The position numbers are program-made. A DNA stretch of 64,000 nucleotides from Thermodesulfobacteriota bacterium (GTDB lineage: Bacteria > Desulfobacterota_D > UBA1144 > Nemesobacterales > Mycalebacteriaceae), in the NCBI GenBank assembly GCA_965198945.1, contig CBDAQI010000005.1:1-64000 (forward strand). Reading direction: 5' to 3'. Below are positions 36,001-42,000 of this stretch, piece by piece (position 1 is the stretch's first letter; each line of letters starts with the position of its first letter).

Positions 36001-39000
36001 CTTGGTTTATTGTTTTGTTCAAAACATCATCAACAGAGACCGAACCGCCAATTTGAACAAAACGCTTTTTATATCTAATTCGCTCTCTGTCATCCAAAGT
36101 AATAGTGCGATTGCGTGGAGCACGCTGTTTTACTAAGTTTGAAACCATCTCTAAATCAAATCATCAACTTCCACACTACTAGTAATGGAATCTGATGTTT
36201 CCAACAGTATATCAGACAACAAAATTCCAAGGGGCTTTAATCTGACTTCAACTCAAAAGCCAACAATTTGAAACCCTTCATACTTGTAAACTCTTTTACC
36301 ATAAACGGTAACACTTTTTATCAATACAAACCGCTCAAAACGCAACCGGGCACTGGAATTACGGTTGACTCAATACACGGTTTCTCAGTTTAGTTCACAA
36401 GCGCGGGAACCCGATAAAAGTTGACCGGAGCACTTGTCTGCCAAACCACCGTCTATTTTTATGCAGAATATTAAGAACTTCCCTACCTACCCCCCGAACC
36501 AGCCGTTCAAAACTGCCGAAAGCAGAACAATTTGCGGCACCGCCACAAGCGGAATAAAAAGAGACAGTTTCCACGAGCGGGTTGTGTCTTTCACGGCCAT
36601 AATTTCGGTGTAATCGGTAGCCGCGCCCGACATGAGAAAAGCAAACGCATTGCCCGGCGCATGGGCGCGCGTCAGCAAATCAGCCGCGATGGGAGTTGAA
36701 CCCTCGGAGCAAACCTCAATTACCACAGCGGCTATAAGGGTCAGCCCCAGTCCGGCAAGGGTCGGACCGAAAAGCTCTTCATAGCCTATGTGTGTGCCAA
36801 AAACTCTTATGACGGCAGCGAGAAGCACTCCGAGAAGAAGCCAGCGCAAAACGGGTTTTGAATCCCTGAAAGCGGATTTGACGAGGAACAAGGCTGTGTT
36901 CCTGTTCAGACGTATCTCTGAAAGTGATGAAAAAACCATTTTCAGTCCTCCGGACACGGGACTGACAGTGTTGGGATTGGGCGGCAGAACGGATTTTTTT
37001 TCAAGACTGACAAAAACAAGACCCGTCATAAACGCCACCGCCATTGAAAGAATAACAAAAGCAGCCGTCCACCATATACCCACAAGCGCGATGAGAACCA
37101 AGGTGAGTGAAAGTGAGTTCCAGGGACTCGCCAGAAGAAAAGCCGCAATCTGCCCCATGCTCGCGCCGCGCTCATAAAGCTTCATGCCAAGCAGAACTAT
37201 GCCGTGATTGCAAACATCAAAAAATACTCCGGCAAAAACTGCACGCAAAATACCGCGGGAACTTGAGCCGTTGCCAAGAATGGAAGAAACCGCCTCACGA
37301 GGCACAAGAGACAGTAAAGCTATTGAAACAACGCCAAGGGCAACTCCGGGCAGAATCGTGACCGTTATTTCACGCACTGCAAAGGTCAAATCACTGAACC
37401 ACGGACTTTGTGAAGAGAAAAAATCCGCCGCATAAAGAAAAACCACCGCAGACAGACACCCCCAGAAAAGGTAGTCAAAAGATTCGGAACTGTGACAACC
37501 GCCGGTATGAGAGTGATGAGATTCCCTCATAAGAGAACTGCGGAGGGCGAGGGATTCGAACCCCCAAGTCCGTTAGGACGCCGGTTTTCAAGACCGGTGC
37601 ATTAGCCGTTCTGCCAGCCCTCCGGTTGGGGAAATTATACAGGATTTGAAACCGCTGCGGCGGAGGGTTTGGCTTCCTCTTTCAGCATGGGAAGATATTT
37701 TCCGCCAAGCAGTATGCTTCCGCGCTCGGCGCCGCTCATAAGACGCCCCACCATATAGTCTCTGTCCGCGCCGACTATGTTAACTCCGTGGTCGCTTTCA
37801 ACCAGACACAAAAGCTTCATGTCTCGTTCGGCGGAGGGATTGTCCGCCACTTTGTATACGGCCGCGTAGTTCAAAAGCGCCGCCTCAACCGTTCCGCACG
37901 GAAGAGACGGATTTTCCGCGCCTTCGCAAAACTCTCCGTTCTCAAACCACTGCGGAGACGGATAGCCGTGAAAATGCAAGACGGAAATACCGTCTTTTTC
38001 AACCATTTCGGGCATGTAAATGGCAAATGAAAACGCCTGCGCCAGAATTACAAAAGTGTCAAAAGAGGGTCTGATGTCGCGGCGCGAAAGATCCATTCCG
38101 GCCGGAATTTGAAGGTGCAGCTTTCCTTTGATAATCCCTATGCGCACAATATCGGTCATCGGATCAAGATTTGTTTTGTCACAACCCGAACGGGAAGTTA
38201 CCGTCCAAATGTCCGGAACCTGTCTGAAACTCTCAGCGCCCGCCACATTAATCTTCACATACCACCTGCCGGACTCCGATTCCCTCACATCCGTAAGGCC
38301 CGAAACCCGGGAAAATGCTTCCCACTCTTCGGCTGAAACCTCTTTGGGGCCCTCGTATACGGGCGGTTCAACAATCGCTATAAAACCGTAGGAAACACCC
38401 GTTCTGCCGTCAAGTATGTTGCTGAGCACATCACGATGAGAAACGCGACGTATGCGCTCGCTGAATTTGTATCCTTCGGGGAAAAGACCGGTCGGCCTGA
38501 CCATTTTGCCGAGATTTGCAAGTGCCTCGGTGTTGGGGTTTTCCGCCGGATTATAATCCTCTATATTGAACCTGCTAAGTATCGGAGGTTTTATCGGAGC
38601 GTAAATCTTCGGCACAAGCGAATTCAGAACAAAACCGTCAAGCTGGCCGTGCGAGTAAACCGAATCGGACAGGTTCATGTTGATTATGGCGAAATTCTCA
38701 TCGGAAACGCCGATTACGATCTCAGACATTGTGCCGATGAGGTGGCTTAAACCGATTTCTATTTTCACATCGTAGGTTGTCTCTTCGTTTTCAAACTCCT
38801 TTTCAAGAGGCACAATCGTTATGACCTGCGTGCTGAATGGGTCTTGAATATACTTCTGAGTAAAGTCATCCGCCCAGCCGCTTATTTTCAATATCTCCAT
38901 GACCGACCTTCCGGGCTTTCTCACAATCCCGTAAATCCATTCCGCAAGCGCACTGAGCGCCCTGCGCAGTATTGAAGGACTTCTTTTGACATCCACAACC

Positions 39001-42000
39001 GCGTTTATATCTCTTTTGACCCTTCTGATTTTGAAAATGCGGGAGATAATGCCAAACGCATTATCCTGAACGGTCGCTTCCTCCCACGGCACAATGGTAA
39101 CGCCAATCCGCTGAAGACTGTCTTTGAGTTTGCCGGAGAAAGATTTAATTCTCTCCTCCCCGTACCGGCCCGGAACGGGACGGAAAGACACCCGCACATT
39201 TGAAGCCATTTCATTCGGGTCTATCGGGTTTGCGCAATTGCGCAACCGCGGCATTCCCGTGAGGGAAACTATCGTTTTAAGGTCAATATCTGCTAATTTC
39301 CGGCTCATTTCACCTTCCCCTGATAATTTATTGGGCGGAGACCTCATCCCGCAGGCGCTCATCCACTTTCTTCAGCATTGCATCTCTCACGAGACCCTCA
39401 ATCTCTTCCCTTCCCTCTTTTCCGCCGGGAAACTGCGCCGGATAAACCGGAGGCAGAAATTCAACGGACATTTTTTCACCCGTTTTCAATATACGGTCGG
39501 TTTTTCTCTTAACATTCTTTCCGCCCCATATAATCATCGGAACAACCGGAGAACCGGACAGAGATGCGAGCAGAAAGCCGCCTTTTTTGAAATCAAGCAG
39601 CCGCCCGCTTTCACTGCGCGTTCCCTCAGGAGCGAGCACAATCGTATGTTTTTCTTTGCGAATTCCGCGTGCCATAAACTTTAACTGTCTGGAATCCCCG
39701 CTTCCGCCGTCCCTAGGGACGAAGTAATGTCCCGTCATTTTTGAAACCCATCCGACAAAAGGGATCCTCAGAACCTCGTCTTTCATAACCAGTTTGTATT
39801 CTCCCGGCAGAGAGGCCACAAGAGCGGGAATGTCCAGTGAACTCTGGTGATTGTACATTATAACTGACGGTTCGGACGGAATATTTTCAACCCCCCTGAT
39901 TTCAAAGGACACTCCGCAACAGAAAAGCACGGCTCTGCCCCACGGGCGCACCGCAAGCCTTATAACATAGCCCGGAGCAAAAAGGGAAAGAAAAACTCCT
40001 GTAATACCGAAAAATAAAGTGGCCGCCGAAGAAAAAAAAACGGCGGCTAAACCTTTTAGCATTATCGGTTCAGACTACACCCTGCGCCCCGGTGTTTCAA
40101 GAAATGGCGCCCTGCGGGCAAAGCAAGTTGAGAGCCCCTTTGTGAATGGAAATCTCGTGCCTGCCGGCCTGTAAAATAAACGGCTCGCCGTCAATATGCG
40201 CCGGAAGGTCTTTTTCCGTCTCAATTGTCGCGGCGTCTGACTGGATTCTCATGATCCATTCGCCGTCCGCTTTTCCGGCAATGACTGATGCCAGACGTAT
40301 AAGACGCACAGGGGCTGACATATCCTTTACAAAATGAAAATCAAGGAGGCCGTCACCCGGGCGCGCGGCGGGAGAAATTTTGAATCCGCCCTGACTGTGT
40401 CCGTTGGAAACTCCGGCAAGAATGCAGCGCCCGGAGGTTTTTGAGCCCTCCAGCGATAAAAGCGCCTCAAATCCGTCAAATGAGAAAGCCTCCGCGCAGG
40501 CGGCGGCAAGATAGCCCGCGAAACCTCCGAGAAACCTGTATTGCGGAAACCTTGATGCTATGGCTCCGTCCATTCCTATTCCCAAACCGTTGATAAATTT
40601 CCGGCCGTCAAGCAGACCCGTGTCAACCTTTATACATCCGCCTGAAACAACGGCTTCAAGAGCGTCTCCGAAAGAAAGTGGCAACCCGCACGCGGCGCGA
40701 AAATCGTTTCCGCTTCCCGCGGCTATTACGCCGAGACGGGCCTCCGTTCCCGCAATCACACCCGCAATCTCACTTGAAGTCCCGTCTCCCCCGACGGAAA
40801 TAATGTGGGAGAACCCTTTGGCAAGCCCCTCGGAAGCAATGTTTGCCGCATCTCCGGGGGCGCGTGTAAGACGAATTTCAAAGCCGACACCTTTTGAGCT
40901 GCAGAAAGAAGATATTCGTCCGGCAAAATCGCTTGAATCACGCTTTCCCGCAGCGGGATTTATTATAAAAAGATGTGTATGCGCATTTGCCATTTCGGCA
41001 AACTATAACAGATGGACACTTGATAAAAACTCCGCATTTGTGTAGAAATTTGCCCTGCGCTTCCGTATCGGACAGTGGCAAAGGAGAAATTGATGAGCGA
41101 AGAGACTCAGGAAATTGAAACCGGCGGCGAAGAACTGAATATGAAACAGCTCCTTGAAGCCGGAGCCCATTTCGGACATCAGAAAAGTTATTGGAACCCC
41201 AAGATGAAATCACATATCTTCGGAGTCCGCAACGGCGTCCATATAATTGACCTGCAAAAAACGGTGGGGCTTTTCAAAATCGCCTACCAGTTCATTTTTG
41301 ACCTCACATCAAAAGGCGGAACGGTTCTTTTTGTGGGAACCAAACAGCAGGCTCGCGGAATAATCAGGGAAGAAAGTGAAAAATGTGCGATGCCATATGT
41401 CAATGTGCGGTGGCTCGGCGGAACCCTGACGAATTTCGGCACAATACGTTCGCGGCTTCAATATATGGATATGTTGAAAAAACTTGAAAAAGAAAACAAA
41501 ATGCAGCTGCTCCCGAAAAAGGAAGTCGTCAGGCTGGGGAAGGAAAAGGCTAAACTCTCAAGCCTTCTGGGCGGTCTTGTGTCACTGAAAAGACTTCCCG
41601 ACGCCGTTTTCATTGTTGACACCAAAAAGGAAATCAACGCCTTCAAAGAGGCGAGAAAACTTGGAATACCAATAGTCGGTCTTGTTGACACAAACTGCGA
41701 CCCGTCTGAAATTGACTATGTAATACCGACCAACGATGACGCAATGAGAGCTATTAAACTGTTCACTTCAAAAATAGCCGAAGCGTGCGCCGAAGGAAGA
41801 AAGGTCTACGAAGAAACTGTGAAAGACATGCCCGAAGAGGAACGCAGAGAGCAGTGTAAAGAACAGCAAGACGGCCCGATTGTTGAGAAAAAAATGTATG
41901 TATTTAAGAAATTTGGTGAAGACGAAGAACAGGAAGATGAAAGAAAATTGAACACGGCCGCAAGCGAGACTCCCGGCGGAGAGGCAGGGTCCGGGGCGGC

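What a model noticed while it worked through the whole genome (the two positions that open the first line are those of the whole stretch)
37635..40993. Phospholipids without glycerol-3-phosphate: GpsA, PlsX/Y/B and PgsA are lost exactly where the yegS-plsC-aldolase operon [...]
This genome makes fatty acids and has CdsA, PssA and Psd, yet has no known source of glycerol-3-phosphate (GpsA, GlpK, GlpD) and no G3P acyltransferase (PlsX, PlsY, PlsB); its only acyltransferase is one PlsC. Across the phylum the 557-aa class II aldolase-fold protein of the yegS-plsC operon is mutually exclusive with GpsA, so it is the candidate first enzyme of a G3P-independent route (likely from DHAP) to the phosphatidic-acid precursor. 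The new part is the missing pathway and the exclusion, not the protein itself.
Evidence so far: Same 61 genomes, six frames: PlsY 0/61, PlsX 2/61 (17), GpsA 9/61 (16), glycerol kinase 0/61 over cut-off (56), PgsA 5/61, all in the other order (55). PlsB 0/31 and GlpD C-domain 5/31, none in this genus (200, 199). One PF01553 gene in G000 (18). The 557-aa protein is in 50/61 (26): none of the 9 GpsA genomes has it, 59/61 have exactly one of the two, 2 (91% and 93% complete) have neither. plsC lies beside it in 67/80 loci, yegS in 65/80, a His-phosphatase in 35/80 (31). Distant homologs sit by PKS/Pfa and DevBCA-like genes in cyanobacteria, by two acyltransferases and YegS in planctomycetes (33), and by an SDR in 22/88 or an acyltransferase in 17/88 loci (44). 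Best fold match is the DHAP-u [...]
(Added by a program. Inside this text positions count along the whole contig: contig position 1 is position 1 of the stretch shown here. "Call 12" and the like, gene names such as g00115 and contig names such as C1 are that model's own, and its searches are not shown. The text may have been shortened before it was handed on; [...] marks where a part breaks off. The agent that wrote the report below was given it as the finding of a first reader that could run no searches.)

Follow-up and report, generated by a model that had tools for sequence, protein, structure and literature searches.

The report
Probable glycerol-free diol phospholipid pathway
These bacteria lack the genes that put glycerol into membrane lipids and instead carry a relative of an enzyme from a cyanobacterial gene cluster that makes long-chain 1,2-diols, so they probably build membranes on a diol backbone by a route whose genes were not known.

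Summary
The operon is real: yegS, plsC and a 557-aa protein X. The genome has fatty-acid synthesis, CdsA, PssA, Psd and a PI(P)-synthase-like gene, but GpsA, GlpK, GlpD, PlsX/Y/B and canonical PgsA were not found.

In 120 phylum genomes X is in 89 and GpsA in 31. Four have both, and their gpsA is foreign, so native GpsA is in 0 of 89. 'Lost exactly' fails for PlsY, PlsB and PgsA, which X-negative relatives also lack. What X replaces is GpsA plus a second PlsC-family acyltransferase (28 of 31 X-negative, 5 of 89 X-positive). YegS tracks X (89 of 89, 1 of 31).

X is 42% identical over 528 aa to NglG of Nostoc punctiforme, the proposed terminating enzyme of a cluster making a C21 1,2-diol from a C20 acyl chain. 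Homologues follow or fuse to acyl carriers and precede reductases.

Best reading (0.6): X adds one carbon to acyl-ACP; reduction, YegS and PlsC give a diol analogue of phosphatidic acid, not glycerol lipids from DHAP. No chemistry was tested. The carbon donor and the reductase are unidentified.

The parts
40097..40993 (-). yegS: YegS/DAGK-family lipid kinase, 298 aa; proposed to phosphorylate O1 of the diol (or of the 2-acyl-diol)
   Evidence: TIGR00147 125.9 bits over cut-off, PF00781 and PF19279; ortholog in 89 of 89 X-positive and 1 of 31 X-negative genomes, the one being a contig break
39328..40062 (-). plsC: the only PF01553 acyltransferase of the genome, 244 aa; ortholog of the phylum-wide PlsC; proposed to acylate O2
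   Evidence: tree of paralogues
37635..39308 (-). X: 557-aa NglG-family protein; proposed acyl-ACP one-carbon-extending, chain-releasing enzyme
   Evidence: 42% identity over 528 aa to NglG, E 7e-147; purine-rich ribosome-binding-like stretch before the ATG at 39308; in 89 of 120 genomes
37710..38552 (-). class II aldolase-fold domain of X (residues 253-533) with invariant R302, S374, G375, K378, S415, D417, H445, H447, C471, E504, H507
   Evidence: AlphaFold2 pLDDT 93.6; Foldseek and VIA-align; invariant in 78 of 78 rows
38589..39221 (-). N-terminal alpha/beta domain of X (residues 30-240), closest to CoaB phosphopantothenoylcysteine synthetase; function unknown, possibly binds the phosphopantetheine arm
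   Evidence: Z 9.0 (rmsd 4.7, 155 aligned) to 2gk4; four CoaB chains at Z 8.5-9.0, receiver-like folds at Z 6-7.7; weak
37540..37623 (-). tRNA-Ser(TGA) directly downstream of X; context only
57452..58744 (-). third CDP-alcohol phosphotransferase, IPCT/DIPPS-like, 431 aa; possible head-group enzyme or compatible-solute enzyme, unlinked to the operon
   Evidence: NF041135 68.6 bits, below cut-off
58755..59540 (-). nucleotidyltransferase directly upstream of the third CDP-alcohol transferase

Best explanation
X is an NglG-type enzyme that takes a finished acyl chain from acyl-ACP and releases it with one extra carbon as a 1-hydroxy-2-alkanone. A reductase (not identified) gives a long-chain 1,2-diol, YegS phosphorylates O1 and PlsC acylates O2, in an order that is not known. 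The product is a phosphatidic-acid analogue with a C-C bond in place of the sn-1 ester. CdsA, PssA/Psd and the PI(P) synthase then make diol-PS, diol-PE and diol-PI. X plus YegS thereby replace GpsA plus the PlsC-family G3P acyltransferase of X-negative relatives. Shown: gene content, co-distribution, homology to NglG, fold, invariant residues, gene neighbourhoods. Published: the ngl product structure; NglG's role there is the authors' hypothesis. Inferred: every reaction. Most likely chemistry (inferred): acyl transfer to invariant Cys471, C-acylation of a metal-bound enediolate from a small sugar phosphate such as DHAP, then C-C cleavage that leaves one carbon on the chain and a phosphorylated by-product.
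For: Native GpsA 0 of 89 X-positive against 27 of 31 X-negative; second PlsC paralogue 5 of 89 against 28 of 31; YegS 89 of 89 against 1 of 31; His-phosphatase 41 of 89 against 0 of 31. All 6 genomes of the genus have one PF01553 gene. X is 42% identical to NglG, whose cluster makes a C21 vicinal diol from palmitate plus two PKS extensions and has no known termination domain (PMC10849952). A FAAL-ACP-X fusion has no ketosynthase. In 64 cyanobacteria-type loci an ACP lies directly upstream in 34 and a reductase directly downstream in 27. In 18 of 18 type I modules nearest upstream of X the KS His or the AT Ser (or the AT) is lost. plsC lies directly upstream of distant homologues in 28 of 79 loci, mostly Patescibacteria. 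Two motif positions that are Asn and Ser in tool-fetched AraD/FucA-like proteins are Phe or Tyr in 78 of 78 X rows, as expected if an alkyl chain fills the phosphate site. Diol lipids with head group at O1 and acyl at O2 exist in Nitrolancea, with a C20 diol beside a C19 acid (PMC3504966).
Against: No reaction or lipid was measured in any organism of this phylum. NglG itself is uncharacterised. No reductase lies in the operon; the best SDR of G000 is only about 33% like the cluster SDRs and occurs in X-negative genomes too. Lgt is present, and its usual donor is phosphatidylglycerol (recalled). Five X-positive genomes keep the second acyltransferase and two re-acquired a gpsA-acyltransferase pair, so mixed membranes are possible. 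Outside the phylum X coexists with GpsA in 3 of 5 genomes tested, and in Patescibacteria it sits by a sensor kinase, so the family is not tied to membrane synthesis. The genomes are kin: the exclusion may rest on one to a few events. The motif mapping to aldolases is by eye; profile alignment failed.
Confidence: 0.6

Rival explanations
1. Salvage: YegS and PlsC rebuild phosphatidic acid from acylglycerols taken up from host or environment, and X makes a separate specialised diol glycolipid or signal.
For: The phylum is described as taking up phospholipids (bioRxiv 2020.06.22.165886, passages). G000 has three acyl-CoA-ligase-like ORFs by motif. Homologues elsewhere are in specialised clusters or by sensor kinases and coexist with GpsA.
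Against: Does not explain why native GpsA and the second acyltransferase are absent from 89 and 84 of 89 X-positive genomes, many of them 2.5-4 Mb, or why plsC moved from its aroB locus into the X operon.
Confidence: 0.13
2. X makes a different C-linked backbone here, keeping all three carbons of DHAP (a long-chain keto-diol or polyol phosphate), which the phosphatase and YegS then remodel.
For: Best folds are DHAP-using aldolases. A His-phosphatase follows X in 14 of 20 fetched loci and occurs only in X-positive genomes. LsrF is a precedent for acyl-CoA plus DHAP chemistry on an aldolase (recalled).
Against: The one known product of a homologous cluster has only one added carbon. The phosphatase ortholog is missing from 48 of 89 X-positive genomes, G000 included.
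Confidence: 0.12
3. One reading: X is a new DHAP O-acyltransferase; acyl-DHAP is reduced to lysophosphatidic acid and PlsC gives ordinary phosphatidic acid.
For: Invariant Cys471 and three His on a DHAP-type fold; SDR neighbours in other phyla; X replaces both GpsA and the first acyltransferase; TPI present; would keep a diacylglyceryl backbone for Lgt.
Against: Needs no kinase, yet YegS is in 89 of 89 X-positive genomes. The nostochlorosides contain no glycerol ester of the PKS chain. Phosphate-site motif positions are aromatic.
Confidence: 0.1
4. G3P comes from an unrecognised enzyme or from uptake, the single PlsC acylates both positions, and the link with X is shared ancestry.
For: X-negative relatives also lack PlsY and PlsB, so this phylum already uses unusual acyltransferases; kin are not independent.
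Against: X-negative genomes need two PlsC paralogues; re-acquired gpsA came with its own acyltransferase; plsC-X linkage recurs in Patescibacteria.
Confidence: 0.05

Closest known systems
NglG (Npun_F3362, UniProt B2J018) of the nostochloroside cluster, Nostoc punctiforme (PMC10849952)
   Same: 42% identity over 528 aa; all invariant residues shared; predicted aldolase domain; placed after acyl-carrier genes
   Different: X has no TubC docking domain, no PKS and no adjacent SDR; it sits with plsC and yegS and replaces core phospholipid genes. NglG is itself untested.
Class II aldolase/adducin fold (FucA, RhaD, AraD, MtnB, OtnC/YgbL)
   Same: Fold of residues 253-533 (Z 11-13.6), HxH plus distal His, an acidic residue at the AraD-like position
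   Different: No PF00596 hit; extra 240-aa N-domain and insertions; invariant Cys; two phosphate-site motif positions aromatic; acyl-thioester context
Long-chain 1,2-diol membrane lipids of Thermomicrobium, Nitrolancea, Roseiflexus, Thermus
   Same: Predicted product: head group at O1, acyl at O2, diol one carbon longer than the main acid (PMC3504966); T. roseum also lacks plsB (PMC2615216)
   Different: Genes for those lipids were undefined in the passages read; whether those organisms encode X could not be tested
Bacterial ceramide phospholipid route (SPT, reductase, CpgB kinase) of Caulobacter
   Same: Logic: C-C-linked neutral backbone, acylation, then a DAG-kinase-domain enzyme adds phosphate (bioRxiv 2023.05.01.538943, passages)
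   Different: No SPT-type motif found in G000; X is metal/aldolase-fold, not PLP; CpgB and YegS are separate clades in that paper
Acyl-DHAP pathway of eukaryotes (recalled)
   Same: A G3P-independent entry to phosphatidic acid
   Different: Uses a PlsB-family acyltransferase and needs no kinase; X is unrelated

Membership tests
NglG family | Full-length sequence homology to NglG | tested here: met
   42% over 528 aa, E 7e-147; P0442 is UniRef100_B2J018 (78), the accession given for Npun_F3362 (70)
NglG family | Shared invariant active-site residues | tested here: met
   R302, S374, G375, K378, S415, D417, H445, H447, C471, E504, H507
NglG family | TubC N-terminal docking domain and PKS context | tested here: not met
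   No PF18563 in X, present in cyanobacterial and Pseudomonas members; X is a stand-alone subfamily
NglG family | Makes acyl chain plus one carbon | not testable with these tools
   Hypothesis even for NglG
Class II aldolase superfamily | Fold | tested here: met
   Z 13.6, rmsd 2.9, 166 aligned; Foldseek E 3.6e-5 (34)
Class II aldolase superfamily | Three metal-binding His | tested here: met
   H445, H447, H507 invariant in 78 of 78; metal binding inferred
FucA/RhaD/AraD sugar-phosphate aldolases proper | PF00596 match | tested here: not met
   No hit up to E 1; no PDB sequence hit with the profile
FucA/RhaD/AraD sugar-phosphate aldolases proper | Asn and Ser-Ser phosphate-binding motifs | tested here: inconclusive
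   By-eye motif match gives Phe/Tyr at both positions; profile alignment failed
Thermomicrobium-type diol lipid pathway | Diol lipids in the cell | not testable with these tools
   No lipid data for the phylum found
Thermomicrobium-type diol lipid pathway | X homologue in known diol producers | tested here: inconclusive
   Only the T. roseum megaplasmid could be searched, no match; the chromosome was out of reach
YegS/Rv2252/BmrU lipid kinases | TIGR00147 over cut-off | tested here: met
   125.9 against 118.65 bits; substrate not testable
PlsC/LPLAT acyltransferases | PF01553 with HxxxxD and PEG motifs | tested here: met
   TIGR00530 below cut-off, so the acceptor is not fixed

The most novel reading that the evidence does not exclude
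Most of an order of bacteria builds its whole phospholipid membrane without glycerol, on long-chain 1,2-diols, and the X/NglG family is the missing diol-backbone synthase: a metal- and cysteine-dependent aldolase-fold enzyme that extends acyl-ACP by one carbon. The same enzyme would end cyanobacterial PKS lines and, in Patescibacteria, make an alpha-hydroxyketone read by the adjacent 7TM histidine kinase.
Probability: 0.4. Interest if true: 0.92.

Novelty: new variant of a known kind. Interest (0 to 1): 0.82.

Why it matters
Long-chain 1,2-diol membrane lipids were described in 1986, and the T. roseum genome paper says their synthesis remains to be clarified (PMC2615216). This operon gives a three-gene, directly testable candidate for a glycerol-free entry into the CDP-lipid pathway. 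It predicts a lipid biomarker for a widespread phylum for which no lipid data were found. It also links an orphan PKS-termination enzyme, with several hundred homologues according to PMC10849952, to primary metabolism. It further points to a PlsC-family paralogue as the G3P acyltransferase of the X-negative relatives, which lack PlsB and PlsY.

Tried and rejected
Pfam, NCBIfam, PDB sequence and ESM Atlas searches gave no family for X. G1P dehydrogenase as an alternative backbone source: the hit is AroB. Ornithine lipid (OlsB 0 in G000, 1 of 5 genomes), cardiolipin/PLD and an SPT-type motif: not found in G000. SDR C13:30245 as the dedicated reductase: in 100 of 120 genomes, X-negative ones included, so not specific; the other 8 SDR hits were not profiled. 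A fresh beta-ketoacyl-ACP as substrate: disfavoured because the last type I modules are degenerate and one fusion has no KS, although a trans-acting AT could serve the 8 modules whose KS is intact. Profile alignment of the aldolase domain to four fetched aldolases failed. A motif hit taken for a class I aldolase was ribosomal protein L2. Promoter and terminator scan: chance level. The T. roseum chromosome could not be searched; its megaplasmid has no match. No complex of X with AcpP was predicted. Paper searches found no paper on a diol-phospholipid gene set, on this operon, or on nostochlorosides beyond PMC10849952; the library lacks most subscription papers. Searches of earlier scan findings returned nothing.
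Full report
Locus. The window is G000:C5:1-64000 of a 1.39-Mb, 95% complete genome. 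Named close homologues of X come from Candidatus Mycalebacterium and Dadabacteria, so the phylum name is inferred from those labels. Three minus-strand genes lie divergent from rpsB-tsf-pyrH-frr: yegS (40097-40993), plsC (39328-40062) and X (37635-39308, 557 aa), followed by tRNA-Ser. In 20 fetched X-positive loci yegS is present in 19 and a His-phosphatase in 14; plsC is directly upstream in 19, one of them read, and two ORFs away in one.

The gap in G000. Found: FabD, FabG, FabF, AcpP, Psd, TPI, Lgt, CdsA, inositol-1-phosphate synthase (5 of 5 genomes) and three CDP-alcohol transferases, best matched to PssA, PI(P)/AI(P) synthase and IPCT/DIPPS, all below their cut-offs. Not found: GpsA, PlsX, PlsY, PlsB C-domain, GlpK, GlpD C-domain, PLD/Cls, OlsB; the controls rang in each search. 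GpsA and PlsX of same-order genomes gave no tblastn hit in G000. plsX is missing from the place before fabD-fabG where X-negative relatives have it. There is one PF01553 gene in each of the 6 genomes of the genus.

Distribution in 120 genomes. X is in 89 and GpsA in 31; 112 have exactly one, 4 both and 4 neither. The four GpsA copies in X-positive genomes are foreign. Two lie in 31-32% GC surface-glycan clusters, and two form an acyltransferase-gpsA pair at 35-37% identity; all fall outside the native clade in a 15-row tree. Of the 'neither' genomes, G082 ends its contig right after yegS-plsC. G045 lacks even a strong PlsC match and G091 is 77% complete; G010 is unexplained. PlsX is in 8 of 31 X-negative and 0 of 89 X-positive genomes. 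PlsY (1 of 120), PlsB (0 of 120) and high-scoring PgsA (15 of 120, all in the other order) do not follow X.

What X replaces. X-negative genomes carry two PlsC-family proteins: one orthologous to the operon plsC, near aroB, and one between gatB and carA. The second is in 28 of 31 X-negative and 5 of 89 X-positive genomes. As PlsB and PlsY are absent, I infer that it is the G3P acyltransferase. The YegS ortholog is in 89 of 89 X-positive genomes (one with stops in the match) and in G082 only among the rest. The phosphatase ortholog is in 41 of 89 and 0 of 31. These genomes are kin, so the pattern may rest on few events; I did not count them.

Structure. The model from 78 sequences has pLDDT 93.6. 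Residues 253-533 match class II aldolases (Z 13.6 to 2opi, 13.2 to 1gt7). Residues 30-240, folded alone, match CoaB best (Z 8.5-9.0), only a little above common folds. H445, H447, H507, D417, E504, C471, R302, S374, G375, K378 and S415 are invariant. Against AraD-like and FucA-like proteins fetched, the GN and SSD/SSE motifs appear as GF and SF/YD in 78 of 78 rows. That these positions bind phosphate is recalled, and the match is by eye, since profile alignment failed.

Homologues use acyl thioesters. One cyanobacterial protein is FAAL-ACP-X, 42% identical. A metagenome scan kept 80 of 144 relatives. In 62 of these plus 2 plasmid loci (64 cyanobacteria-type loci; the other 18 were set aside as Dadabacteria-like or unassigned), an ACP is directly upstream in 34 and a PKS in 10, with 9 at contig edges. 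An SDR or extended SDR is directly downstream in 27, and MGDG-synthase-like or other glycosyltransferases are often near. Of 35 nearest upstream PKS proteins, 17 are Pfa/Hgl type without the KS Cys, and all 18 type I modules lack the KS His, the AT Ser or the AT. A genome scan kept 80 of 293 relatives, mostly Patescibacteria. Of 79 loci with X called, a 7TM histidine kinase is directly downstream in 63, plsC directly upstream in 28, an SDR in 9 and an acyl-CoA ligase in 3. GpsA was present in 3 of 5 such genomes.

The link to a known product. Glasser et al. 2024 (PMC10849952; I read the abstract, passages, section 7, parts 2-3 of supplement 3 and rows of supplement 5; supplement 4 is a scan and was not readable) solved the nostochlorosides as glycosides of a C21 vicinal 1,2-diol. 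Palmitate plus two PKS extensions gives C20. The authors propose that NglG, with a docking domain and a predicted aldolase domain, terminates the line and that NglH or NglJ reduces the product. NglG is B2J018, retrieved as P0442, and X is 42% identical to it over 528 aa with all invariant residues shared. From the published positions (Cl at C7 of palmitate becoming C12; OH at C6), the thioester carbon becomes C2 and one carbon is added as C1; this is my inference.

Mechanism. I infer acyl-ACP to 1-hydroxy-2-alkanone (X), reduction to the 1,2-diol, phosphorylation at O1 (YegS), acylation at O2 (PlsC), then CdsA and the serine and inositol branches. A neutral backbone explains why the kinase is obligate; a DAG-kinase-domain enzyme phosphorylates ceramide in Caulobacter (bioRxiv 2023.05.01.538943, passages). 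The predicted lipid has the layout reported for Nitrolancea, a C20 diol with O1 head group and an O2 ester of a C19 acid (PMC3504966, passages; also PMC3426160, passages). T. roseum membranes are diols, it lacks plsB, and the route was unclear (PMC2615216, passages). The carbon donor is unknown; the linked phosphatase suggests a phosphorylated donor or by-product. OtnC, LsrF, CqsA/CqsS and the usual Lgt donor are recalled and come from no call.

Against. Nothing was assayed, and NglG's role is a hypothesis. No dedicated reductase was found. Lgt is kept without a recognisable PG synthase. Some X-positive genomes keep or regained G3P genes. Elsewhere the family serves specialised clusters or sits by sensors. 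Whether known diol producers have X could not be tested. The heterocyte glycolipid preprint (10.1101/2024.05.17.594646, passages) reports 1,3-diols and no TubC protein in its main text; its supplements were not opened and may list these clusters.

Verdict. The missing pathway is real and sharper than reported: X with YegS replaces native GpsA and a PlsC-family first acyltransferase. The best reading is a glycerol-free 1,2-diol phospholipid route (0.6), ahead of salvage (0.13), another C-linked backbone (0.12), acyl-DHAP (0.1) and a hidden G3P source (0.05). The protein belongs to a family noted once as hypothetical, and the lipid class is known; the gene set and its use in core membrane synthesis were not found in print in searches.

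Noticed in passing
L042-L109, L119 (mostly Patescibacteria): X homologue directly followed by a HisKA_7TM histidine kinase in 63 of 79 loci, often after plsC or an acyl-CoA ligase. The layout resembles synthase-sensor pairs for alpha-hydroxyketone autoinducers (recalled), so this is a candidate signalling system in Patescibacteria.
   Followed up: partly
L143, L145, L147, L149, L150, L152, L156, L157, L159, L161 (gatB-carA locus): A PlsC-family paralogue in 27 of 27 genomes with native GpsA, which lack PlsB and nearly all PlsY: candidate new type of G3P acyltransferase.
   Followed up: partly
G002-G004, G013-G017: PlsX is present in 8 genomes of which 7 have no detectable PlsY; the acceptor of acyl-phosphate is unknown.
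   Followed up: no
window 57452-59540 (-): Nucleotidyltransferase plus IPCT/DIPPS-like CDP-alcohol transferase; could make a compatible solute or transfer a head group from CDP-alcohol to a lipid acceptor.
   Followed up: partly
L279:954-1706 (G000 C4): Lgt over cut-off in a genome with no recognisable phosphatidylglycerol synthase; the donor lipid is unexplained.
   Followed up: no
L126, L131, L132, L139, L232, L240, L241, L243: A beta-hydroxyacid dehydrogenase (tartronate semialdehyde reductase-like) lies just downstream of X in lineages that lack the His-phosphatase; absent from G000.
   Followed up: partly
L124, L141, L266, L267 (G100, G098): Tandem duplicated plsC in the X operon, and a separately acquired acyltransferase-gpsA pair.
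   Followed up: partly
L108-L121, L089, L099: Distant X homologues in Ignavibacteria/Bacteroidota, usually after an SDR, and in Thermoplasmata; these could make diols beside glycerolipids.
   Followed up: partly
L162, L163 and L164-L224: Many cyanobacteria-type clusters (FAAL, ACP, halogenase-like, PKS or Pfa, X, reductase, glycosyl- or sulfotransferase) predicted to make undescribed 1,2-diol lipids; includes plasmids of Nostoc sp. UHCC 0926 and Gloeothece verrucosa PCC 7822.
   Followed up: partly
window 30000-36200: Low-GC island (36-41%) with a DNA methyltransferase, a HincII-like nuclease, a toxin-antitoxin-like pair and a nucleotidyltransferase pair, beside tRNA-Arg at 29271-29344.
   Followed up: no
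window 36487-37530 (-): ArsP/SO_0444-type permease downstream of tRNA-Ser; near X only in this genus and one other locus.
   Followed up: no
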